DNA of 22,115 bases from Bdellovibrio sp. (GCA_046318155.1 JBKCUU010000026.1:1-22115), one strand, 5' to 3'. Shown: positions 81 through 11,669, counted from the stretch's first letter. Notes: generated by a model from the letters alone, not told the origin. Numbers and translations: made by a program.

Positions 81-140
81 AGTCGTACTCCTATTCGTAG
101 GAGCAGACTGTCATGTCCGGTTCAAATGGGGTGCACTACA
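1..140 (-). mobile_element. Left end of an IS3-family (IS2-like) insertion sequence, continuing beyond the window start
   Basis: Minus strand from 140 reads TGTAGTGCACCCCATTTGAACCGGACA, an IS3-type terminal repeat (TG...CCCC...GGACA). It is followed by a GGAG RBS and an ORF encoding the IS2-like OrfA motif EVITSVQRRR. Confidence 0.8.
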
Positions 141-426
141 CTGAGTTCGTAGCCGTGACGGTTACGGCTGCAGAGGGTCTTTCGACAACCGCCAGGGATT
201 TGAATTGAGACTTTTTTACTTCCGCTCGCCACTGATAAATCGTTTCAACCGAAAGTCCGCTTAAATCCGCAGCTTTCTTGCACGAGCCGACAACATCAGT
301 CAGCAAGAGGGCTCTATCGCGAATTGATTTTGGCCAGACCTTGTAACCTCCGGAACCGACCTCGGCGATATATTGAGCATAGATTTGTTTGATCTCCGAA
401 ACTAATTCCGGTGCTGAATTTTTCAT
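136..426 (-). pseudogene. IS66 TnpA-like HTH protein, truncated at the 3' end by the IS3 insertion
   Basis: WPKSIRDRAL...AADLSGLSVETIYQWR HTH followed by F..L.V; the TAG stop (138-136) lies inside the IS3 terminal repeat. Confidence 0.6.
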
Positions 427-1741: not shown

Positions 1742-2125
1742 ATGAAACCGTTTCTTTTGTTGGCTCTTATGAGCCTGACCACCACAAGTGCCTTTGCCTC
1801 TGCTGACTTTTTTGAATGCGGTGGCTTTGCTGGAGTCGATGAATATCGTTCGGCCATTGATCTGAAAACGAACAAGGCCGATTTTTTTGACAATGATGCG
1901 ACGTCAATTTTGACTTTGAAATCGGTCAAATCGTTAGAGTCATCACCTCCTCAAACCCTCATGATTTTTGAAGGTCAGGATGCTGGCTATAGTGGGACGT
2001 TAAGACTTTCTTTTAACTTAACAAAAAAGAAAGCAACCATGGCTTCAATTGATAGCAATGGCAAAGTCAGCGAAATTGGAAAAGCGAACTGTGTTGTTGC
2101 TCCCCGCCGAGATCTTGAAGAGTAA
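1742..2125 (+). CDS. Secreted hypothetical protein
   Basis: AGGAG RBS; signal peptide ending SAFA; one Cys near each end of the mature chain; followed by a terminator. Confidence 0.8.
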   Translation: MKPFLLLALMSLTTTSAFASADFFECGGFAGVDEYRSAIDLKTNKADFFDNDATSILTLKSVKSLESSPPQTLMIFEGQDAGYSGTLRLSFNLTKKKATMASIDSNGKVSEIGKANCVVAPRRDLEE

Positions 2126-2146
2126 GATTTTTTTAGGTGCTAAATC

Positions 2147-2182
2147 AGCGGGAAGTCATTCTGGGCTTCCCGCTTTTTATTT
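2147..2182 (+). terminator. Rho-independent terminator
   Basis: AGCGGGAAG...CTTCCCGCT stem followed by TTTTATTT. Confidence 0.85.
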
Positions 2183-2201
2183 GTCGGCCTGATTCTTGCC
2201 A

Positions 2202-2370
2202 CTACAAATTGAATCGCGTTCCGACAAACAGGCTCGATTCAAGCGTATTAAATGAGTTGCTCACTTTTTCGATTTGATAGCCAACAGAATCATTCACAAC
2301 GCTCAACCCGAAGATAAATCTCTCGCCATTATAGCCAAGTCCTATTTTTATATGATTGCCATATCCAAAT
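2202..2370 (-). pseudogene. Orphan 3' fragment of an outer-membrane beta-barrel gene (DUF4421-like), not in ORF track
   Basis: A start-less frame reads GYGNHIKIGLGYNGERFIFGLSVVNDSVGYQIEKVSNSFNTLESSLFVGTRFNL*, with alternating beta-strand pattern and a terminal G.RF signature. Confidence 0.55.
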
Positions 2371-2614
2371 CGTTAATATTTTTCGTTTCAATGTATTTTT
2401 CCGGGACATAGAAGAAAGCATAACCGAAAGAAAATTCTCTGGTTCGATCTTCGATGATCTTGAAGTTATGTTTATTGCGATCTTTGCTTAAATAGGCTTC
2501 AGCTATCTTTGTAGCCGTTTTTTTATCAAGTTTTTCCATCTGATCACCTCGTGCGGAAAACCCTAAACCAATCCCAAGCATTGTCAGAATCGAAAGATGA
2601 ATAACAAACTTCAT
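2348..2614 (-). pseudogene. YrhB/Imm35-like protein with signal peptide, C-terminally truncated
   Basis: A..IAEAYL...IIEDRTREFSFGYAFFY...YIET resembles YrhB-like immunity proteins; the sequence stops before the usual G..P..V.K..G tail. Confidence 0.55.
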
Positions 2615-2736
2615 GTCTTAATTTTTCTCTAGTGACAATTGATTGTCCAGAAATCAAATCTTTCGCGCTATAGCTGGTCAGATTCCTTCGCAGAACCCTA
2701 AGCTTTTAGCTCACGACACCCAATGATTTAAATATC

Positions 2737-2765
2737 TTGACAAATTGAGCGATATACCGCACACT
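2737..2765 (+). promoter_or_regulatory. Sigma70-type promoter with palindromic operator for TA module 1
   Basis: TTGACA(2737)-N17-CACACT; imperfect palindrome GCGATATACCGC at 2749-2760. Confidence 0.55.
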
Positions 2766-2766
2766 T

Positions 2767-3087
2767 ATGTTCATGAGCACGTTGCTTCAGGTTCTTAAAA
2801 CAGCTGAGTTTGATAATTGGCTGTCGGTTCAGCCGCCCAAATCAAGAACCATCATCCTTGCTCGGCTCGATATGATTGCCCTCGGCCACTTTGGCAATCA
2901 TAAACGGTTTGAAGGGCTCATTGAACTTAAGTGGCTTAATGGAACTCGAGTTTATACTTTTATGTGGGGCAATGCTGTAGTGGTTGTCCTTTACGGAGGA
3001 AATAAAAATGGCCAAAGCCGCGACATCAAAAAAGCAAAAAAAATCAGGGACGAAGTCCTTGAAGGCACACGTACCCTTCACAAGTAA
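2767..3087 (+). CDS. RelE/ParE-family toxin (HI1419-like addiction-module killer)
   Basis: TAEFDNWL, ILARLD..ALGHFG, GLIELK, G.RVY, LYGGNK..QSRDIKKAK; start may be ATG 2773. Confidence 0.88.
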   Translation: MFMSTLLQVLKTAEFDNWLSVQPPKSRTIILARLDMIALGHFGNHKRFEGLIELKWLNGTRVYTFMWGNAVVVVLYGGNKNGQSRDIKKAKKIRDEVLEGTRTLHK

Positions 3088-3322
3088 AGAGCTCAAAGAC
3101 TCTCACTTGGTGGCTGACACCTTACTTGAGTGCATCAAGACAGGTGATATTGAAGCTTTTCGTGAGGTGCTGACAGCTCATCTCATGACTGTGAATAAAT
3201 CAGCCTTTGCCAAGAAATTTGGAATTGGCCGTCGTACTTTATACGACTTGATGGACCCCGCAAAAGTCTTCAATCCAGAGCTTTCAACAATCTCTGCTGT
3301 TATTAAATCACTTGCCGCTTAA
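3008..3322 (+). CDS. HTH antitoxin (HI1420-like addiction-module antidote)
   Basis: Overlaps the toxin 3' end; GD..AFRE.L, K..FAKKFGIGRRTLY, NPELSTISAVIKSL; ATG 3008 preferred over the track start. Confidence 0.85.
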   Translation: MAKAATSKKQKKSGTKSLKAHVPFTSKELKDSHLVADTLLECIKTGDIEAFREVLTAHLMTVNKSAFAKKFGIGRRTLYDLMDPAKVFNPELSTISAVIKSLAA

Positions 3323-3357
3323 TTGATGGGCTCCAAATCAAAATTAACCACCGCTCG

Positions 3358-3451
3358 GAGTTCGCCTACTATCAAACCCTCTCCGCCAAATTTTGAAAAT
3401 CCAATAAAATCAAGCATTTAAAAGTCATCGTCTTTGACAGTAGGCGAACTC
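3358..3451. repeat. Inverted-repeat site 1 (19-bp arms, tRNA-Ser-like core, IHF consensus)
   Basis: Arms GAGTTCGCCTACTATCAAA (3358-3376) and TTTGACAGTAGGCGAACTC (3433-3451), 1 mismatch; the spacer holds CTCTCCGCCA and AATCAAGCATTTA. Confidence 0.85.
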
Positions 3452-3475
3452 TTATTATGGTGGTTTTAATTTTTC

Positions 3476-3503
3476 TTGAATTTATATCGAACCTTGATAC
3501 ACT
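3476..3503 (+). promoter_or_regulatory. higBA1 promoter and operator
   Basis: TTGAAT-N16-TACACT with extended -10 TG; imperfect palindrome TATCGAACCTTGATA overlaps the spacer. Confidence 0.55.
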
Positions 3504-3510
3504 GATATTC

Positions 3511-3801
3511 GTGATAAAGTCATTCGGAAATGAAACAGCTCGGGACATTTTTAACGGTGACAGTACCAAAGAGGCCAGGAAGTTGCCTAGAAATCTTTGG
3601 TCGATCGCTGTTCGAAAACTTGATCAACTGAATGCGGCTTTTCAATTAAGTGATTTGAAAATTCCTCCAGGTAATCGGCTTGAGATTTTAAAGGGCGATT
3701 TGGCTGGACTTCACAGTATCAGAATAAACAATCAGTACCGCATTGTTTTTAAGTGGACTGAAGATGGCCCCGAGAGAGTTAAGATCATCGATTATCATTA
3801 G
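3511..3801 (+). CDS. higB: HigB-family toxin (plasmid maintenance system killer)
   Basis: IKSFG, RKLDQL, DLKIPPGNRLEILKGDLAGLHSIRINNQYRIVFKW, IIDYH; GTG 3511 is the likely start. Confidence 0.92.
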   Translation: MIKSFGNETARDIFNGDSTKEARKLPRNLWSIAVRKLDQLNAAFQLSDLKIPPGNRLEILKGDLAGLHSIRINNQYRIVFKWTEDGPERVKIIDYH

Positions 3802-3821
3802 GCGCAGAAAGGAAATAAAAA

Positions 3822-4115
3822 ATGCTACCAAAACACAGGCAACCAACTCATCCCGGAGAAATTCTTCTCAACGATTTTCTTGCGCCTATGGGCCGCACGC
3901 AGCAGGATTTTGCGACCCACTTGGGATGGACCTATGCCAGAGTTAACGAGATTATTAATGGAAAGCGTGGGGTATCTGAGGAGGCGGCTCTTTGCTTCGC
4001 AGACGCTTTTGGTACCTCGCCACAATTTTGGCTAAATTTACAGGCCAACTATGATTTATGGGCGGCACAACAAGCTCATAAAAAAGTAAAACCCCTTAAG
4101 TCAGTAGCCTCATAG
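3822..4115 (+). CDS. higA: HigA-family antitoxin
   Basis: PTHPGEILL.DFL, RVNEIINGKRGVS, FGTSPQFWLNLQANYDL. Confidence 0.93.
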   Translation: MLPKHRQPTHPGEILLNDFLAPMGRTQQDFATHLGWTYARVNEIINGKRGVSEEAALCFADAFGTSPQFWLNLQANYDLWAAQQAHKKVKPLKSVAS

Positions 4116-4140
4116 AATTTAAAAAGCGTGGACGGTCGAT

Positions 4141-4818
4141 ATGGCAAAAAAGAAGATCAAAAACAAAACTACGACAGTCCGAGAACACCCCATGCAAGTT
4201 CCCGTCAGCGAAAAAAATCCGACAGGAGTAACTATCCGCGATCAACATCTTCGTCGATTGCCTGGAACATATTTAAAGCGCGGAGATATTGACGATGTTT
4301 TTAAAAATCACAACCGAAAAGGCATTTCATATCCTACATTGGGTAAGATTCCCGAACATAAAACAGCAGATGACTATGATGCACTGATCGCTGTTTGGAC
4401 AGATTATTTCAATGCTAAATTGAAAACAGATCCACCACTTGACCCAGATGTCTTTAAAGCTCTTTTGGCAAGTGAATCTGGATTTCGTCTCCATACACCC
4501 AAAAATAAAACCGCTTTCGGAATTGCTCAAATTACGAAACAAACATGGGAAGTTTTGCAAAATCCAAAGGGTGAGGCCAAGGAATTTATTTTCAACGATA
4601 TTCGACAAAAAGATCTAAGAGATCCCAACATAGCGATTCCCATGGGTCTGCGATGGCTAATGTATAAATCAAAAAGAGCTGGGGCAAAGTTAGGGCGAAC
4701 ACCAAATCATGAAGACATCATACTCGAATACAAAGGCCTTCTGAAAAGTAAAACTGCATACAAAGATAACGCACTCAAAAATTATAGGTATTATTATGGA
4801 CTACTTAAAAAGAAGTAA
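4141..4818 (+). CDS. Lytic transglycosylase (SLT)/lysozyme-fold protein without signal peptide
   Basis: KALLASESGF (catalytic Glu motif I), AFGIAQIT (GLMQ-like motif II), DP..AI..G.RWL, EYKG (AYN-like position); basic N-terminal extension. Confidence 0.75.
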   Translation: MAKKKIKNKTTTVREHPMQVPVSEKNPTGVTIRDQHLRRLPGTYLKRGDIDDVFKNHNRKGISYPTLGKIPEHKTADDYDALIAVWTDYFNAKLKTDPPLDPDVFKALLASESGFRLHTPKNKTAFGIAQITKQTWEVLQNPKGEAKEFIFNDIRQKDLRDPNIAIPMGLRWLMYKSKRAGAKLGRTPNHEDIILEYKGLLKSKTAYKDNALKNYRYYYGLLKKK

Positions 4819-5314
4819 AGAGACACTATTTATTCTCATCTATCTATTGGCCATAGGCTGCTCGACATCCTCGTTTAAGATTTTACATAATAAAAATTCG
4901 GCCGTGGAGTTTTTGGTCACTCCAGACCGTGTTATCCTTGAGTGTGAAAGAGTAGAAACAGATGACCGCGGCGTAGTTGCGGGCTTTATGATGCATATTA
5001 TAGATGAAAAGAAGACCAGTTTTACCTTGGTGCAAACAAATACTCTTGATCGGGAAAGCTGTGAATATCGATCTACGAAAATTAAAAAAATCTTGAAGAG
5101 TGGTAAAGAAATCCATTTAGCTGGCATTGGCGATTTTCAGGAACCTAGGGAGACAGGATTGCGTAAATACACTTTTCCTAATTTTGGCGCGATTGAACAC
5201 AATGGACGCTCACTTCAATTTATCGCCATTTGGAATGAACACAATCTATGCTTTGGGGCCTTCTCAGCAGAAGAGCAACCGTGTCCGCCAGAGCCTTTTC
5301 CCCTTAAAAATTGA
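4796..5314 (+). CDS. Lipoprotein of unknown function
   Basis: Lipobox LAIG-C after a hydrophobic stretch; four further Cys; overlaps the SLT gene end by 23 nt; paralog at 6496. Confidence 0.82.
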   Translation: MDYLKRSKETLFILIYLLAIGCSTSSFKILHNKNSAVEFLVTPDRVILECERVETDDRGVVAGFMMHIIDEKKTSFTLVQTNTLDRESCEYRSTKIKKILKSGKEIHLAGIGDFQEPRETGLRKYTFPNFGAIEHNGRSLQFIAIWNEHNLCFGAFSAEEQPCPPEPFPLKN

Positions 5315-5350
5315 GTGAACCTACGTAAGATCAAATACAACCAAGCTGCG

Positions 5351-5442
5351 GAGTTCGCCTACTATCAAGCGTTCTTCGACAATATAATTCTTAAGTAAAA
5401 TCGAATAGTTAAAAATTTCTAGCTTTGACAGGAGTCGAACTC
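5351..5442. repeat. Inverted-repeat site 2 (paralog of site 1)
   Basis: Left arm CGGAGTTCGCCTACTATCAA is identical to site 1 (5349-5368 vs 3356-3375); right arm TTTGACAGGAGTCGAACTC (5424-5442); spacer holds AATCGAATAGTTA. Confidence 0.85.
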
Positions 5443-5478
5443 CAGAAAAGACACGCGTGTTTTTCTTTGCTATTTATT

Positions 5479-5497
5479 ACACTATTCGGCATAGTGT
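5479..5497. promoter_or_regulatory. Putative HigA2 operator
   Basis: Perfect palindrome ACACTAT-N5-ATAGTGT just upstream of higB2. Confidence 0.6.
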
Positions 5498-5515
5498 GTA
5501 TATTGGGGGGGCGAC

Positions 5516-5806
5516 ATGATCCGAAGCTTTGGCAATAGGAGCGCTCAAGACATTTGGGAAACAAATAGTTCAAAGTCGTTGCCAAGAGAATTATGGATCA
5601 GAGCTAAGGCCCTTTTAACCATCATGCACGGAACAACAGAACTGAGTGATTTAAAATTAAAAGGGCAACCGCCGAACATTCGGCTTCACAAGCTTAAGGG
5701 TGATAGAAAAGAAGAATGGAGCGTTACCATTAAACTTCCTTGGTGTATCACCTTTAAATTTAAAGGCGGTGAATTTACTGAGGTAAAAATTGAAAATTAT
5801 CATTGA
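5516..5806 (+). CDS. higB: HigB-family toxin
   Basis: MIRSFG, RLHKLKGDRKEEWSVTI, WCITFKF, IENYH. Confidence 0.9.
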   Translation: MIRSFGNRSAQDIWETNSSKSLPRELWIRAKALLTIMHGTTELSDLKLKGQPPNIRLHKLKGDRKEEWSVTIKLPWCITFKFKGGEFTEVKIENYH

Positions 5807-5815
5807 GAGGTACTT

Positions 5816-6076
5816 ATGATTAAAAATCCAAAACCAATGCACCCCGGAGTTGTTCTAAATGAAGTCTATATGCAAGAGATGGGACTAAATCAGTCTCAGC
5901 TGGCGGAAAAATGTGGTTGCTCCCCAAGGAAAATTAATGAAATTGTTAATGGTAAGCGTGCAATTTCCCCTGATTTTGCTCTCGTACTTGAAAAGGTTCT
6001 TGGGACAACTGCTGAAATGTGGGTTCGAATTCAGGCTGAATACGACCTTTGGATCGCTCGAAAACGAGTAGCGTAG
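5816..6076 (+). CDS. higA: HigA-family antitoxin
   Basis: PMHPGVVL, INEIVNGKRAISPDFA, GTTAEMWVRIQAEYDL. Confidence 0.92.
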   Translation: MIKNPKPMHPGVVLNEVYMQEMGLNQSQLAEKCGCSPRKINEIVNGKRAISPDFALVLEKVLGTTAEMWVRIQAEYDLWIARKRVA

Positions 6077-6518
6077 TGGCAAAGAAAAAAATAAAAAAGA
6101 ATACCACAACCGTTCGGGATCATTCACTACGCGTGCCTATGAGTAAAAAAAATCCCACAGGTATAACAATACGGGATCAACATTTCGTCACCACACCCCA
6201 GAAAACAAAACTGCTTTCGGAATTGCTCAAATCACCAAGGAGACATTGACTATTCTACAAAATCCTAAAGGCGAGGCCACGGAGTTTATTTTCAACGAAA
6301 TCCGACAGAAGGATTTGAAAGATCCCACCATTGCCATTCCGATGGGCGCTAGATGGCTTATGTATAAATCCAAACGTGCGGCTGCAAAGTTGGGGAAACA
6401 ACCATCCCATGAAGAGATTATTTTAGAGTATAAAGGCTTATTGAAAAGTAAAACCGAATACAAAGACAAAGCTCTAACGAGTTACAGGAACTACTATGGA
6501 CTGCTTAAAGATAACTAA
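6076..6518 (+). pseudogene. SLT-like paralog with internal deletion and frameshift
   Basis: GTG start overlaps the higA2 stop (TAGTG). The N-terminus matches 4141, then at about 6183 jumps to FRHHTPENKTAFGIAQIT in another frame; about 235 nt including the SES motif are missing. Confidence 0.88.
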
Positions 6519-7008
6519 ACGGGTATTGGGAATTTTTATCCTTCTGATGAGTTTCGCAGGGTGCGCAACTTCCTCGTTTAAGGTTTTGAGTCAAGAAAAG
6601 TCTTCCCTAGAGGTTCTGGTTACTCCGGATCGAGTAATTCTCGAATGCGAGAGAGTTGAGACAGATGATCGAGGCGTAGTCGCTGGCTTTATGATGCATG
6701 TCTTAGATGAGAAAAAAACAAGTTTTACGCTTGTGCAAACAAATACGCTCGATAAGGAAAGTTGTGATCGTAGAGTCAAAAAAATCGAAAAAATTTTGAA
6801 AAATGGCACTCAAATTTATTTGGCTGGAATAGGCGATTTTCGAGAGCCCAGAAAAACAGGTCTGCGCAAACACACTTTTCCCCGATTTGGTTCCGTAGAA
6901 GACAATGGCCGCTCTCTTCAATTTATTGCGATAAGGAATGAGCACGATCAATGCTTTGGAGCGCTCTCCGCCAATTTTGATAGTACGCGAATTGTCCGCA
7001 GTAGTTGA
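6496..7008 (+). CDS. Lipoprotein paralog with replaced C-terminus
   Basis: Lipobox FAG-C; closely similar to 4796..5314 (VTPDRVILECERVETDDRGVVAGFMMH) up to CFGA, then unrelated. Confidence 0.8.
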   Translation: MDCLKITKRVLGIFILLMSFAGCATSSFKVLSQEKSSLEVLVTPDRVILECERVETDDRGVVAGFMMHVLDEKKTSFTLVQTNTLDKESCDRRVKKIEKILKNGTQIYLAGIGDFREPRKTGLRKHTFPRFGSVEDNGRSLQFIAIRNEHDQCFGALSANFDSTRIVRSS

Positions 7009-10583: not shown

Positions 10584-11669
10584 CTAGGTTGATTTTGTGA
10601 GGTCAAAAAATCGAAAAAACGAAGCAACCTGGGCAAACAAATGGCTCATAAAGAGACGGGGATTTTTGACGACCGAAGCGCCGCGCGAAAGAGTGTGAGT
10701 TTCAAAATGCAGGTGGGCGCCGGTTCCAATACCCGTGCTTCCGGAGATCGCAACTGTTTGACCTTGAGTTACCGCGGTTCCATTTCGCAACGAGTGTTTT
10801 GAAAGATGCGCGTAGAGAGACTGCATGCCAACTTGGGGGTAAACAACGATCGTGTAGAGCCCATACCCCGTGAGTTTTTTAGTTCGTCGGTTCACTTCAG
10901 AGCGGTTCGCTAAAACTTTTCCATCAAAAACGGCAACCACGGGAGTTCCTGTTGCGGCACGCAAATCAATCCCCTTGTGCAAGCGTGTTTTGCGCAAAAC
11001 GGGGTGACGACGCATTCCGTACTCGCTCGTAACTTTGAGACAACCGTTACCACAGTTTTTAAGAGGGCTCATCATCCTCTTGTTTGATGCCGAAGCCTCA
11101 ACCAGAATGTTTTGGATGCGCCATTTAGCATCGGCGTCCAAAACATCCAAGGACGTTGCGATGGATTTAAGAAGGCGGTCATCTTGCTGAGTTTGTTGCA
11201 GAGTAACGGCTTCTTTGACGGGCTCTGAGTTTCCTTCCATTGTTTTTAATCTTTTGAGCATTGTTTGTGACAAACAATAGTCATCACGCTCAAGCATTTC
11301 GGATTCACGAAGTTCTTCATCTAAAATATCGACGACGCGGATCCCGCAAATCCAGCCACCTTTTGAGCGTTTGGAATTCGAACCATCTTCGTTTTCTGAA
11401 TACTCCTGATTCACGCGTTCGGGGGCAATTTTTTGATCCTCAATGGCCGTGCTCATCATGCGAACATCAAGCGACAGAATTGATTCCGCTGGCACCGTAA
11501 ATTTTGGCAGCAAAAGTGACTTGCCCGCGATATCCGATTTTAAGAACAGACGAACCTGCTCCTGAGTCTCGGCGTAGTAAGTCGAGCTGAAGGCGTCAAT
11601 CGGCTCGGCAAGCGAAAAACTTGAGAGAGTTGTTAGCACTCCAAAAAGGGCCAGGGTGTTTTTTTTCAT
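10584..11669 (-). CDS. Secreted M23-family metallopeptidase
   Basis: Signal peptide; HKGIDL, YAHL, SGSTG.GTGAHLHFE. Confidence 0.93.
   Translation of the reverse strand: MKKNTLALFGVLTTLSSFSLAEPIDAFSSTYYAETQEQVRLFLKSDIAGKSLLLPKFTVPAESILSLDVRMMSTAIEDQKIAPERVNQEYSENEDGSNSKRSKGGWICGIRVVDILDEELRESEMLERDDYCLSQTMLKRLKTMEGNSEPVKEAVTLQQTQQDDRLLKSIATSLDVLDADAKWRIQNILVEASASNKRMMSPLKNCGNGCLKVTSEYGMRRHPVLRKTRLHKGIDLRAATGTPVVAVFDGKVLANRSEVNRRTKKLTGYGLYTIVVYPQVGMQSLYAHLSKHSLRNGTAVTQGQTVAISGSTGIGTGAHLHFETHTLSRGASVVKNPRLFMSHLFAQVASFFRFFDLTKST

What the first reader, a model, noticed from the sequence alone, without database searches (positions are those of the whole stretch)
3511..7008. Repeated four-gene unit: higB-higA-lytic transglycosylase-like gene-lipoprotein gene
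Seen: two tandem units, each a toxin-first HigBA pair followed closely by an SLT-like gene (25-nt gap in unit 1, TAGTG overlap in unit 2) and an overlapping lipoprotein gene, with no terminator visible between them. The SLT has catalytic-type motifs but no signal peptide, and carries a conserved basic N-terminal extension (VREHP..VP.S.KNPTG.TIRDQH). The partner is a lipid-anchored Cys-rich protein. Established: peptidoglycan-active effectors are typically paired with a downstream periplasmic lipoprotein immunity gene, and HigBA operons are HigA-autorepressed. Inference: a TA-regulated cell-wall enzyme/immunity or lysis module, possibly for defence or predation. I do not recognise it as a described system.
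Basis: partly seen in the sequence, partly recalled or inferred. Interest (0 to 1): 0.85.

Follow-up and report, generated by a model that had tools for sequence, protein, structure and literature searches.

The report
Mobile toxin-antitoxin plus lysin-inhibitor cassettes
Two small mobile gene cassettes lie side by side in a freshwater predatory-type bacterium, each joining a toxin-antitoxin pair to a cell-wall-cutting enzyme and a lipoprotein predicted to block it, an undescribed combination whose second copy is already decaying.

Summary
Unit 1 (3511-5314) is intact: higB, higA, a signal-less SLT-fold enzyme and an overlapping lipoprotein gene. In unit 2 the SLT gene is a pseudogene: about 233 nt are lost, including the catalytic Glu-Ser, and the frame shifts. 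Its lipoprotein also has a replaced C-terminus.

The units are not a duplication. The HigBA pairs share about 39% identity, while SLT/lipoprotein share 72-80%. They are separate cassettes bounded by an inverted repeat and a pseudo-tRNA 3' end. Relatives carry the same cassettes directly after tRNA-Ser(GGA). Other freshwater metagenomes show different junctions and an intact SLT2.

- **Conserved core:** the SLT-lipoprotein pair is found in 71 of 79 Bdellovibrionota loci.
- **Predicted binding:** the lipoprotein loop sits on the catalytic Glu (ipSAE 0.87, best control 0.00).
- **TA link:** 21 of 69 loci have a TA-type module of at least seven kinds ending within 50 nt upstream on the same strand. 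None of 64 has one abutting downstream. HepT-SLT and nucleotidyltransferase-SLT fusions exist.

Best reading: a mobile, TA-led operon carrying a leaderless peptidoglycan-lytic toxin and its periplasmic lipoprotein immunity. Export route, co-transcription and biological role are untested. I found no description in print.

The parts
2767..3322 (+). Neighbouring cassette TA0: RelE/ParE-type toxin (2767-3087) and HI1420-type antidote (2984-3322). It ends with the same right-end repeat as unit 1.
   Evidence: TIGR02683 63.3 bits (cut-off 62.85); TIGR02684 and PF21716 below cut-off. Other samples differ before 2686 and before 3334.
3337..3451 (.). Junction 1: arm1 3358-3375, pseudo-tRNA 3' end CCCTCTCCGCCA 3377-3388, AT-rich spacer, arm2 3434-3451 (inverted copy of arm1).
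   Evidence: Five copies of the 18-mer in the window against 0.02 expected. Arms are 95% complementary. In L046 a tRNA-Ser(GGA) gene ends at the matching point.
3511..3801 (+). higB1 (GTG start).
   Evidence: PF05015 66.2 bits. The start matches the HigB2 N-terminus.
3822..4115 (+). higA1.
   Evidence: TIGR02607 97.7 bits.
4141..4818 (+). Intact leaderless SLT-fold enzyme, 225 aa, pI 9.9, with a conserved N-terminal H..VP.S.KNP.G.T...H domain.
   Evidence: PF01464. AF2 pLDDT 83.9. Foldseek: phiKZ gp144 E 6.9e-4, MltE/MltC/Slt70 probability about 1. Invariant E112 and S113. No hydrophobic segment.
4796..5314 (+). Lipoprotein 1, 172 aa: lipobox AIGC (Cys22) plus four conserved Cys. Predicted inhibitor of the SLT enzyme.
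   Evidence: No Pfam, NCBIfam or PADLOC family. 67 homologues. Alignment. AF2 pLDDT 88.5. Complex ipSAE 0.87 against best control 0.00.
5330..5442 (.). Junction 2: arm1 5351-5368, cassette boundary at about 5376/5377, arm2 5425-5442.
   Evidence: Homology with own contig C47 (97%, next to tRNA-Asp) starts at 5377 and with G006 at 5380. In run X3 a tRNA-Asp 3' end lies directly before 5380, and another flank follows 5370.
5476..5504 (+). Promoter-like site of unit 2, with the palindrome ACACTAT-N5-ATAGTGT (5479-5497) between its hexamers. A likely HigA2 operator.
   Evidence: Scan 9 of 12 (the total count is at chance level). The palindrome is read and is conserved in L048 and L053. Its function is inferred.
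5516..6076 (+). higB2 (5516-5806) and higA2 (5816-6076). A different HigBA lineage from unit 1.
   Evidence: PF05015 29.6 bits; TIGR02607 98.2 bits. About 39% identity to pair 1.
6077..6518 (+). SLT pseudogene: N-terminal 36 codons, then a deletion of about 233 nt with a frameshift at about 6183. The C-terminal part is readable in another frame (6246-6518).
   Evidence: Contigs of X3 and X5 continue past 6183/6178 with undeleted SLT sequence.
6496..7008 (+). Lipoprotein 2: 72% identical to lipoprotein 1 up to 6971, then an unrelated C-terminus. The last conserved Cys is missing.
6962..6994 (.). Array end: a core-like CTCTCCGCCA inside the lipoprotein-2 gene, followed by an arm2-like repeat (6977-6994).
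   Evidence: That recombination happened at this point is inferred.

Best explanation
The region is a short array of independently acquired mobile cassettes of about 2 kb, with no recombinase gene of their own. They have piled up at a tRNA-type attachment site.

Each full cassette is probably one operon. It is led by a self-repressed type II TA pair (here HigBA), which supplies the promoter and probably stabilises the cassette. It ends with a two-gene toxin/immunity pair.

The toxin is a strongly basic, signal-less lytic-transglycosylase-fold enzyme that cuts peptidoglycan. The immunity protein is an outer-membrane-type lipoprotein. It meets the enzyme in the periplasm and blocks it by laying a loop across the catalytic Glu.

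The enzyme reaches a periplasm, its own or a neighbour's, by a route that is not encoded in the cassette. Unit 1 is functional. Unit 2 has lost the enzyme and is decaying.

Shown here: gene content, fold, conservation of the pair, cassette ends, population variants and TA linkage. Inferred: co-transcription, inhibition, periplasmic site of action, and a competitive (bacteriocin-like) or self-addictive role.
For: - **Conserved pair:** a lipoprotein homologue lies directly after, or overlapping, the SLT gene in 71 of 79 loci. The 8 misses are contig ends, truncated hits, or a distant subfamily. That subfamily has a different exported partner gene overlapping at -3 or 0.
- **Divergence:** the lipoprotein diverges faster than the enzyme in 60 of 61 loci, and their divergences are correlated (Spearman 0.51; the loci are related, so not independent).
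- **Fold and active site:**
- **Complex model:** runs 0.89, 0.87 and 0.00, median 0.87, best of 3 controls 0.00, partner pLDDT at least 81. The tool reports at least 0% agreement of contacts between runs. The mark was reached by 116 of 157 solved complexes and 2 of 215 mismatched pairs, and these counts hold only roughly because my own alignments were used. The interface includes SLT residues 111-114, 130, 132 and 198-221, and lipoprotein residues 79-85.
- **Cassette ends:** tRNA-Ser 3' end, then arm2, genes, arm1, then a pseudo-tRNA end, in L046, L048 and L053. The same arms flank a Phd-ParE version in L075.
- **tRNA upstream:** a tRNA gene lies on the same strand within 1.1 kb upstream of the SLT gene in 10 of 79 loci. 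My rough estimate of the chance expectation is under 1.
- **Population variants:** alternative junctions at 3334, 3393, 5370 and 5380, and an undeleted SLT2.
- **TA linkage:**
- **Precedent:** a signal-less lysozyme-like effector that reaches the producer's periplasm by an unknown route and needs a lipoprotein immunity protein. PMC10933484, passages read.
Against: - No export signal or delivery system was found. PF05943 (TssC) and PF03135 (VirB4) have no hit in the 95%-complete genome.
- One of the three complex runs scored 0.00.
- No RNA evidence shows a four-gene transcript. The only RNA contig covers 5015-5280 and may be DNA carry-over.
- 46 to 48 of 69 loci lack a recognised TA module at the SLT start, so TA is optional.
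- No recombinase was identified for the cassettes. TIGR02249 gave only below-cut-off hits to ordinary tyrosine recombinases.
- The lipoprotein fold has no clear structural relative: best Foldseek E 0.075, best VIA Z 5.7. The inhibitor role therefore rests on the complex model and gene order alone.
Confidence: 0.5

Rival explanations
1. TA-gated suicide lysis (abortive infection or stress-triggered autolysis). The TA pair acts as an interchangeable sensor. When the antitoxin is lost, the operon is derepressed, the leaderless enzyme rises above what the lipoprotein can hold, and the cell lyses.
For: TA modules of at least seven kinds sit in the same slot, ending within 50 nt of the SLT start, in 21 of 69 loci. 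AbiEi/AbiEii occupies it in L028. Fusions of HepT, a nucleotidyltransferase or DUF4325 with the SLT protein exist. A palindrome lies in the unit-2 promoter region.
Against: The cassette has no holin or other way for the enzyme to cross the inner membrane. Enzyme and inhibitor are translationally coupled, so derepression raises both. PADLOC gave no hit for the SLT or lipoprotein proteins. Most loci lack a TA module. Copies that have lost the enzyme but kept the lipoprotein (unit 2, P0246) fit immunity against outside attack better than a suicide device.
Confidence: 0.2
2. No functional tie between the two halves. SLT-lipoprotein pairs and TA pairs are both selfish island cargo, and they are merely packed together by cassette recombination at the same hot spots.
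For: The neighbourhood is TA-rich on both sides. About 8-9 of 64 loci have a TA-type gene among the two nearest downstream ORFs. Further TA pairs lie on the opposite strand upstream, for example in L052, L050 and L084. The cassettes are mobile. Many SLT-lipoprotein pairs sit beside housekeeping genes without any TA.
Against: The association is directional and tight: 21 of 69 abut upstream on the same strand against 0 of 64 abutting downstream. It also holds in the distant subfamily: Phd in L120, HipA in L122, and the fused HepT and nucleotidyltransferase forms.
Confidence: 0.2
3. A predation or contact weapon. The leaderless enzyme, perhaps together with the TA toxin, is delivered into prey or rival cells by a Bdellovibrionota-specific apparatus. 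The lipoprotein and the antitoxin serve as self-protection.
For: The family was found only in Bdellovibrionota-labelled or unclassified MAGs: 79 of 79 loci, and the names. The distribution is patchy and multi-copy, 20 of 41 related genomes. The effector-then-immunity gene order holds, and the family is basic (pI 9.1-9.9).
Against: The N-terminal domain is not a shared trafficking module. Of 51 representatives with at least 90 residues after it, 43 continue into the SLT domain and the other 8 look truncated or broken. No delivery genes are linked. TA toxins have no delivery domains.
Confidence: 0.08
4. An ordinary cell-wall remodelling enzyme with a regulatory lipoprotein partner, that is, housekeeping.
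For: The subclade at 45-50% identity lies beside housekeeping genes such as Ham1, ABC-3 and RF-1.
Against: The enzyme has no export signal. It is absent from 21 of 41 related genomes. It is multi-copy, sits on low-GC cassettes, and has decaying copies.
Confidence: 0.02

Closest known systems
Xanthomonas X-Tfe(XAC2609)/X-Tfi(XAC2610) T4SS effector-immunity pair (PMC10933484, passages read)
   Same: A cytoplasmically made, signal-less peptidoglycan hydrolase is followed by a lipoprotein immunity gene. That enzyme reaches the producer's periplasm by an unknown, secretion-system-independent route, and the lipoprotein protects against this.
   Different: X-Tfe carries a C-terminal XVIPCD signal and is delivered by an X-T4SS. 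No VirB4 gene was found here. The paper describes X-Tfi as a beta-propeller, whereas this lipoprotein is a small beta-barrel-like fold. There is no TA pair upstream and no tRNA cassette.
Pesticin and its periplasmic immunity protein Pim; colicin-type bacteriocin operons
   Same: A leaderless peptidoglycan-cutting bacteriocin with a periplasmic immunity protein on a mobile replicon. Release involves loss of some producer cells.
   Different: Pesticin has receptor-binding and translocation domains and a T4-lysozyme fold. Here the enzyme is 225 aa with a small His/Cys N-domain and an SLT fold. No uptake domains are recognisable.
T6SS peptidoglycan effectors with periplasmic Tsi/Tgi-type immunity proteins (recalled; reviews appear only in the listing)
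   Same: Effector-then-immunity order, a fast-evolving immunity protein, and orphan or decayed copies.
   Different: No TssC gene in this genome. No MIX, FIX or PAAR-type N-terminal domains.
Tripartite TAC systems (HigB-HigA-SecB-like chaperone) and other TA operons with extra genes (recalled)
   Same: A HigBA pair with further co-oriented, closely spaced genes.
   Different: The extra genes here are an enzyme/inhibitor pair that also occurs without TA and with many different TA families.
Cis-mobilizable elements and tandem accretion at tRNA attachment sites (concept recalled; PMC5704250 seen only in the listing)
   Same: Small elements bounded by attachment-site repeats, lacking their own recombinase, stacked in tandem at a tRNA 3' end.
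   Different: CIMEs are described for Firmicutes ICE/IME families. These are about 2 kb and found in Bdellovibrionota. Their recombinase is unknown, and their mobility is inferred from junction variants only.
TA cassettes in chromosomal integron arrays (recalled)
   Same: Same-strand arrays of small cassettes separated by imperfect inverted repeats. TA cassettes carry their own promoters.
   Different: No integron integrase above cut-off. The crossover lies between the two arms at a tRNA-like core, and the arms do not fit the attC R''/R' consensus (read).

Membership tests
HigBA type II toxin-antitoxin | HigB-like RelE-fold toxin | tested here: met
   PF05015 66.2 and 29.6 bits, cut-off 27.
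HigBA type II toxin-antitoxin | HigA HTH antitoxin encoded after the toxin | tested here: met
   TIGR02607 97.7 and 98.2 bits, cut-off 47.7. Gene order.
HigBA type II toxin-antitoxin | Toxicity, neutralisation and autorepression | not testable with these tools
   Only a palindrome in the promoter region was seen.
Family 1 lytic transglycosylase (SLT domain) | SLT domain above the curated cut-off, with the catalytic Glu-Ser and G..Q motifs | tested here: met
   PF01464 28.7 bits against 21.3. E112, S113, G127 and Q130 are invariant in 26 sequences.
Family 1 lytic transglycosylase (SLT domain) | Goose-lysozyme/SLT fold | tested here: met
   Foldseek: 3bkh E 6.9e-4; MltE, MltC and Slt70 at probability 0.97-1.0.
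Family 1 lytic transglycosylase (SLT domain) | Sec signal or lipobox for export to the periplasm | tested here: not met
   Only 6 codons lie between the upstream stop and the start. Maximum hydropathy in the first 40 aa is at most 0.46 in 25 of 26 sequences.
Family 1 lytic transglycosylase (SLT domain) | Formation of 1,6-anhydro-MurNAc products | not testable with these tools
   Needs an enzyme assay.
Antibacterial effector-immunity pair | Immunity gene directly downstream, targeted to the compartment where the effector acts | tested here: met
   71 of 79 loci. Lipobox and signal peptide.
Antibacterial effector-immunity pair | Immunity protein binds the effector | tested here: inconclusive
   The complex model passes: 0.87 against best control 0.00, two of three runs. 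This is a prediction only.
Antibacterial effector-immunity pair | A delivery system in the genome | tested here: not met
   No PF05943 or PF03135 hit in the 95%-complete genome. Other systems were not searched.
Integron cassette array | Integron integrase | tested here: not met
   TIGR02249 best hit 70.4 bits against a cut-off of 265. The genome is 95% complete.
Integron cassette array | attC sites with the R''(RYYYAAC)/R'(GTTRRRY) consensus and crossover in R' | tested here: not met
   The arms read GAGTTCGCC...GGCGAACTC, and the boundary lies between the arms. No attC model was run.
tRNA-site integrative element without recombinase (CIME-like) | tRNA gene at one end and a repeat of its 3' end at the other | tested here: met
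   L046, L048 and L053. In the window only pseudo-tRNA ends are present. Own contig C47 carries tRNA-Asp joined to a unit-2 leader.
tRNA-site integrative element without recombinase (CIME-like) | Excision or integration shown | tested here: inconclusive
   Alternative junctions appear in other samples. No circular form or empty site was seen.
Phage lysis cassette (holin, endolysin, spanin) | Holin gene and Rz/Rz1-type spanins | tested here: inconclusive
   No membrane-protein ORF lies in the units. Only a weak PHROG Rz-like hit on the signal-peptide region of lipoprotein 2, E 0.0049.
Known lysozyme/LT inhibitor families (Ivy, MliC/PliC, PliG) | Shared fold | tested here: inconclusive
   These families do not appear among the rows shown by Foldseek or VIA. 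Best hits are OB-like, Z 5.7.

The most novel reading that the evidence does not exclude
Type II/IV TA modules of many families serve as swappable triggers for a leaderless lytic transglycosylase held in check by a lipoprotein inhibitor. This would be a Bdellovibrionota-wide, TA-fired lysis or bacteriocin-release device carried on miniature tRNA-targeting cassettes. The HepT-SLT and nucleotidyltransferase-SLT fusions would be its single-chain forms.
Probability: 0.2. Interest if true: 0.85.

Novelty: new variant of a known kind. Interest (0 to 1): 0.62.

Why it matters
If the reading holds, it adds a phylum-specific family of peptidoglycan-lytic toxin/immunity pairs with an unexplained, signal-less route to the cell wall.

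It also shows that TA operons of many kinds can carry such a pair as downstream cargo, or even as a fused domain. That makes an open question directly testable: what do chromosomal TA modules do beyond stabilising DNA? One can ask whether TA derepression drives expression of a linked lytic enzyme.

The roughly 2-kb cassettes at tRNA sites, which have no recombinase, are a compact system for studying accretion and decay of mobile cargo in uncultured freshwater predators.

The enzyme family (basic, small, apparently self-sufficient) and its inhibitor could interest people working on lysins against Gram-negative bacteria.

Tried and rejected
- **Integron array:** no integrase above cut-off, and the repeat geometry does not fit attC.
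- **tRNA or Rfam element in the junctions:** ARAGORN and Rfam found only the three tRNAs at 16-17.4 kb.
- **Known defence system:** no PADLOC hit for the SLT, lipoprotein or HigB proteins.
- **Phage lysis cassette:** only weak PHROG hits.
- **N-terminal domain as a shared trafficking module of polymorphic toxins:** the profile search found 174 proteins at E up to 0.001. Of the best 150, 51 have at least 90 residues after the domain. Of those, 43 continue into SLT and 8 are truncated, frameshifted or deleted forms.
- **ESM Atlas:** no usable hit for the N-terminal 70 residues or the lipoprotein.
- **Lipoprotein fold:** no Foldseek match at E up to 0.001. VIA best Z is 5.7, within the tool's stated noise range.
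- **RNA evidence:** one metatranscriptome contig on 5015-5280 only, which is not evidence of an operon.
- **Programmed frameshift fusing SLT to the lipoprotein:** the lipoprotein frame is +1 relative to SLT and the A-rich run is not in a -1 slippery register (read). Dropped.
- **Literature:** searches listed no paper describing a TA-SLT-lipoprotein operon or these cassettes. I saw listings only, apart from PMC10933484. Subscription journals are not covered.
- **A known slip in ORF picking:** in L057 a same-length overlapping ORF was chosen instead of the GNAT gene seen in L026. The upstream tallies are therefore approximate.

Full report
**Setting.** The window is a whole 22,115-nt contig (C26) of a 2.75-Mb, 130-contig genome that is 95% complete. 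Homologues carry Bdellovibrionales, Pseudobdellovibrionaceae or Oligoflexia labels. Near-identical DNA occurs in freshwater metagenomes. Positions about 2000-7000 have 39-43% G+C against 45-53% in most of the rest of the contig.

**What is at 3511-7008.** Unit 1 is intact:
- higB1, 3511-3801 (PF05015, 66.2 bits).
- higA1, 3822-4115 (TIGR02607, 97.7 bits).
- After a 25-nt gap, a 225-aa SLT-domain protein, 4141-4818 (PF01464, 28.7 bits against a cut-off of 21.3).
- Overlapping it by 23 nt, a 172-aa protein with a lipobox, 4796-5314. It has no Pfam family above cut-off and no NCBIfam or PADLOC hit.

Unit 2 begins in the same way, with higB2 at 5516-5806 and higA2 at 5816-6076, whose stop overlaps a GTG start (TAGTG). 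Its SLT gene is broken. After 36 codons, about 233 nt that correspond to unit-1 positions 4249-4481 are missing. The lost stretch includes the catalytic Glu-Ser, and the reading frame shifts. Lipoprotein 2 is 72% identical to lipoprotein 1 up to position 6971 and then changes to unrelated sequence, losing the last conserved Cys.

**Not a duplication.** The SLT-lipoprotein DNA of the two units is 73% identical over 790 nt. The two HigBA pairs share only about 38-39% protein identity. Each HigBA type occurs with its own SLT-lipoprotein pair in other genomes. The unit-2 type is seen in L027/L074, L048 and L053. The unit-1 type is seen in L046.

**Cassette ends.** An 18-nt sequence occurs five times in the window, against 0.02 expected by chance. 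It reads forward (arm1) just after the stop codons of the upstream TA pair and of lipoprotein 1. It reads inverted (arm2) about 45-55 nt further on, ahead of each higB gene. A fifth, arm2-like copy lies at 6977-6994.

In the related contig L046 (84% identical to window 3380-6183), a tRNA-Ser(GGA) gene ends exactly where the window reads CCCTCTCCGCCA. Its arm2 follows 43 nt later. After its lipoprotein gene come arm1 and TTTCTCCGCCA, a degenerate copy of the tRNA's T-arm and acceptor end. L048 and L053 show the same layout. L075 has the same arms around a Phd-ParE-SLT-lipoprotein unit.

Two independent comparisons place the left edge of unit 2 at 5377-5380. Own contig C47 has a tRNA-Asp gene directly followed by a 97% copy of 5377-5490, after which the contig ends. 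G006 is 94% identical from 5380 onward. In the own genome, tRNA-Ser(GGA) (C27) and tRNA-Asp (C47) both lie within about 110 nt of contig ends.

Contigs from other freshwater samples give further variants:
- A tRNA-Asp end directly before 5380.
- A different flank after 5370, the one that follows a BrnTA-like pair on own contig C19.
- Different sequence before 2686 and before 3334, and after 3393.
- SLT2 sequence that runs on undeleted past 6178-6183.

No integron integrase was found, and no recombinase gene lies within the units.

I conclude that the repeat is an array of separately acquired cassettes of about 2 kb at a tRNA-type attachment site. The deletion in SLT2 is recent and polymorphic. 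Actual excision was not observed.

**The conserved core is the SLT-lipoprotein pair.** The SLT protein has 540 relatives at E up to 0.001 among the candidates scored, nearly all about 224 aa. It is present in 20 of 41 related genomes, often in several copies. In 79 loci from species-representative genomes, a lipoprotein homologue lies directly after or overlapping the SLT gene in 71. The 8 misses are:
- Three contig ends (L054, L057, L112).
- Two truncated hits (L122, L124).
- Three members of a 38-40%-identity subfamily (L120, L121, L123).

That subfamily instead has a different 176-198-aa exported protein whose gene overlaps at -3 or 0.

The lipoprotein diverges faster than the enzyme in 60 of 61 comparable loci.

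The AF2 model of the enzyme (pLDDT 83.9) matches lytic transglycosylases: phiKZ gp144 at E 6.9e-4, and MltE, MltC and Slt70 at probability about 1. E112, S113, G127 and Q130 are invariant.

None of the 26 family members examined has a hydrophobic N-terminus, and all are basic, with pI 9.1-9.9.

The lipoprotein model (pLDDT 88.5) is a small beta-barrel with one helix. It has no clear structural relative.

**Predicted binding.** The complex of the SLT protein with the mature lipoprotein (residues 23-172) scored 0.89, 0.87 and 0.00, median 0.87. The best of three controls scored 0.00, and partner pLDDT was at least 81. The tool reports at least 0% agreement of contacts between runs. The mark was reached by 116 of 157 solved complexes and 2 of 215 mismatched pairs, and these counts hold only roughly because my own alignments were used. 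The lowest-error contacts join SLT 111-113 (including the catalytic Glu), Q130, K198 and 207-215 to lipoprotein residues 63-65 and 77-83. This is the geometry of an active-site-blocking inhibitor. It is a model, not a measurement.

**Link to TA modules.** 69 of the 79 loci have at least 700 nt upstream of the SLT gene. In 21 of them a TA-type module lies on the same strand and ends between -3 and +46 nt from the inferred SLT start:
- HigB-HigA, 6 loci.
- RelE/YafQ-like toxin plus HigA-like HTH, 6 loci. NCBIfam hits were below cut-off for the three toxins tested.
- BrnT-BrnA, 2 loci (one with BrnA only).
- Phd-ParE, 1 locus.
- Phd plus an unassigned gene, 1 locus.
- MazE plus an unassigned gene, 1 locus.
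- DarT-macrodomain, 1 locus.
- Nucleotidyltransferase plus an unassigned 150-aa gene, 2 loci.
- Fic, 1 locus.

Two more lie at 77-122 nt (ParE-HTH, HipA). An AbiEi-like/AbiEii pair occupies the slot in L028.

As a control, I looked at the two nearest ORFs downstream of the lipoprotein gene in the 64 loci with at least 700 nt of downstream sequence. About 8-9 of those loci include TA-type genes. None abuts the lipoprotein gene, and several are on the opposite strand. So the neighbourhood is TA-rich in general, but the tight upstream arrangement is specific.

Roughly two thirds of loci have no recognised TA there. In several, a tRNA gene is followed directly by SLT-lipoprotein (L069, L071, L098). 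The 45-50% subclade lies beside housekeeping genes.

A profile of the N-terminal 62 residues found 174 proteins at E up to 0.001 among 1.84 billion representatives. Of the 51 among the best 150 that have at least 90 residues after the domain, 43 continue into the SLT domain. I scanned 20 of them with Pfam. Seven carry an extra N-terminal domain:
- HepT-like RNase, 2 proteins.
- Pol-beta nucleotidyltransferase, 1 protein.
- DUF4325, 3 proteins (one of them weak).
- A YhcG nuclease fragment, 1 protein.

Such fusions fit genes that are routinely abutted and co-expressed in the cytoplasm.

The distant subfamily shows the older form of the N-domain, a Cys/His motif (HPWRLCP.G.HW...H...H.HC). The window's protein keeps only two of these His residues.

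**How it most likely works.**
- *Shown:* gene content, fold, conservation of the pair, cassette ends, population variants, directional TA linkage.
- *Inferred:* the four genes form one operon driven from the higB promoter. The evidence is a promoter-like site at 5476-5504 with a palindrome between its hexamers, and no terminator-like site between the genes of a unit. The scan totals for both kinds of site are at chance level.
- *Inferred:* the enzyme acts on peptidoglycan. The disulfide-bonded lipoprotein neutralises it in the periplasm. The TA pair stabilises the cassette and provides transcription.

How a signal-less enzyme reaches a periplasm is open. [quoted passage not shown] It has no signal peptide, yet it damages the producer's wall independently of its secretion system unless the lipoprotein X-Tfi(XAC2610) is present (PMC10933484, passages). 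No T6SS sheath gene or VirB4 gene was found in this genome.

Two copies have lost the catalytic domain but kept the lipoprotein gene: unit 2 here, and P0246, where the N-domain runs straight into the lipoprotein. These resemble orphan immunity genes and lean towards attack from outside, that is, a bacteriocin-like role. The rivals are TA-fired suicide lysis and mere co-location. Both remain open and are scored in their own sections.

**Novelty.** Five literature searches listed no description of a TA-SLT-lipoprotein operon or of these cassettes. I saw listings only, and the library lacks most subscription journals. Each component kind is already known: a TA pair, a lytic transglycosylase, a lipoprotein immunity protein, and tRNA-site accretion. 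The new elements are the conserved combination, the interchangeable TA slot with fused forms, the N-domain, and the miniature cassettes that lack a recombinase. I rate it a new variant of a known kind.

Noticed in passing
window 2348-2614 (-): An 88-aa protein with a signal-peptide-like N-terminus and a weak Imm35 (immunity protein 35) hit, E 2.9e-4, below cut-off. It lies just left of the cassette array.
   Followed up: no
window 136-426 (-) and L006 2-295 (-): HTH_23-type transposase-like fragment at the contig start. A similar IS-type HTH ORF lies on own contig C19 near another cassette.
   Followed up: no
L006 (own contig C19) 1500-2034: A BrnT/BrnA-like pair (assigned from its sequence, not scanned against a family library) is followed by the same arm1 and pseudo-tRNA end as in the window. 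So the cassette system carries TA-only units elsewhere in this genome.
   Followed up: partly
own contigs C27:76-165 and C47:110-186: tRNA-Ser(GGA) and tRNA-Asp(GTC) both lie within about 110 nt of contig ends. The assembly breaks just downstream of the very tRNAs that serve as cassette sites in relatives.
   Followed up: partly
L120, L121, L123, L037-L045: A distant SLT subfamily (33-40% identity) has a Cys/His N-terminal motif (HPWRLCP.G.HW..H...H.HC). Its gene is tightly coupled to an unrelated 176-198-aa partner carrying a signal peptide or lipobox.
   Followed up: partly
proteins P0233, P0312, P0281, P0272, P0263, P0234, P0323: Single-chain fusions of HepT-like RNase, Pol-beta nucleotidyltransferase, DUF4325 or a YhcG nuclease fragment to the N-domain-SLT protein. 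Their genomic context was not looked at.
   Followed up: partly
protein P0246; L046 about 5984-6072: Other decayed copies. In P0246 the N-domain is joined directly to the lipoprotein, with the catalytic domain deleted. In L046 the second SLT gene is cut at a different point from the window's.
   Followed up: partly
L029/L077, L072, L059: Short ORFs with weak 'Recombinase' (PF07508) and HTH hits lie next to some SLT-lipoprotein units. They are possible remnants of a serine recombinase that might mobilise the cassettes.
   Followed up: no
L100 3950-4654 (+) and 5907-6476 (-): Two SLT genes in convergent orientation on one short contig.
   Followed up: no
window 10584-11669 (-): A 361-aa M23 peptidase gene lies a few kb from the array, in core-like sequence of normal G+C.
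   Followed up: no
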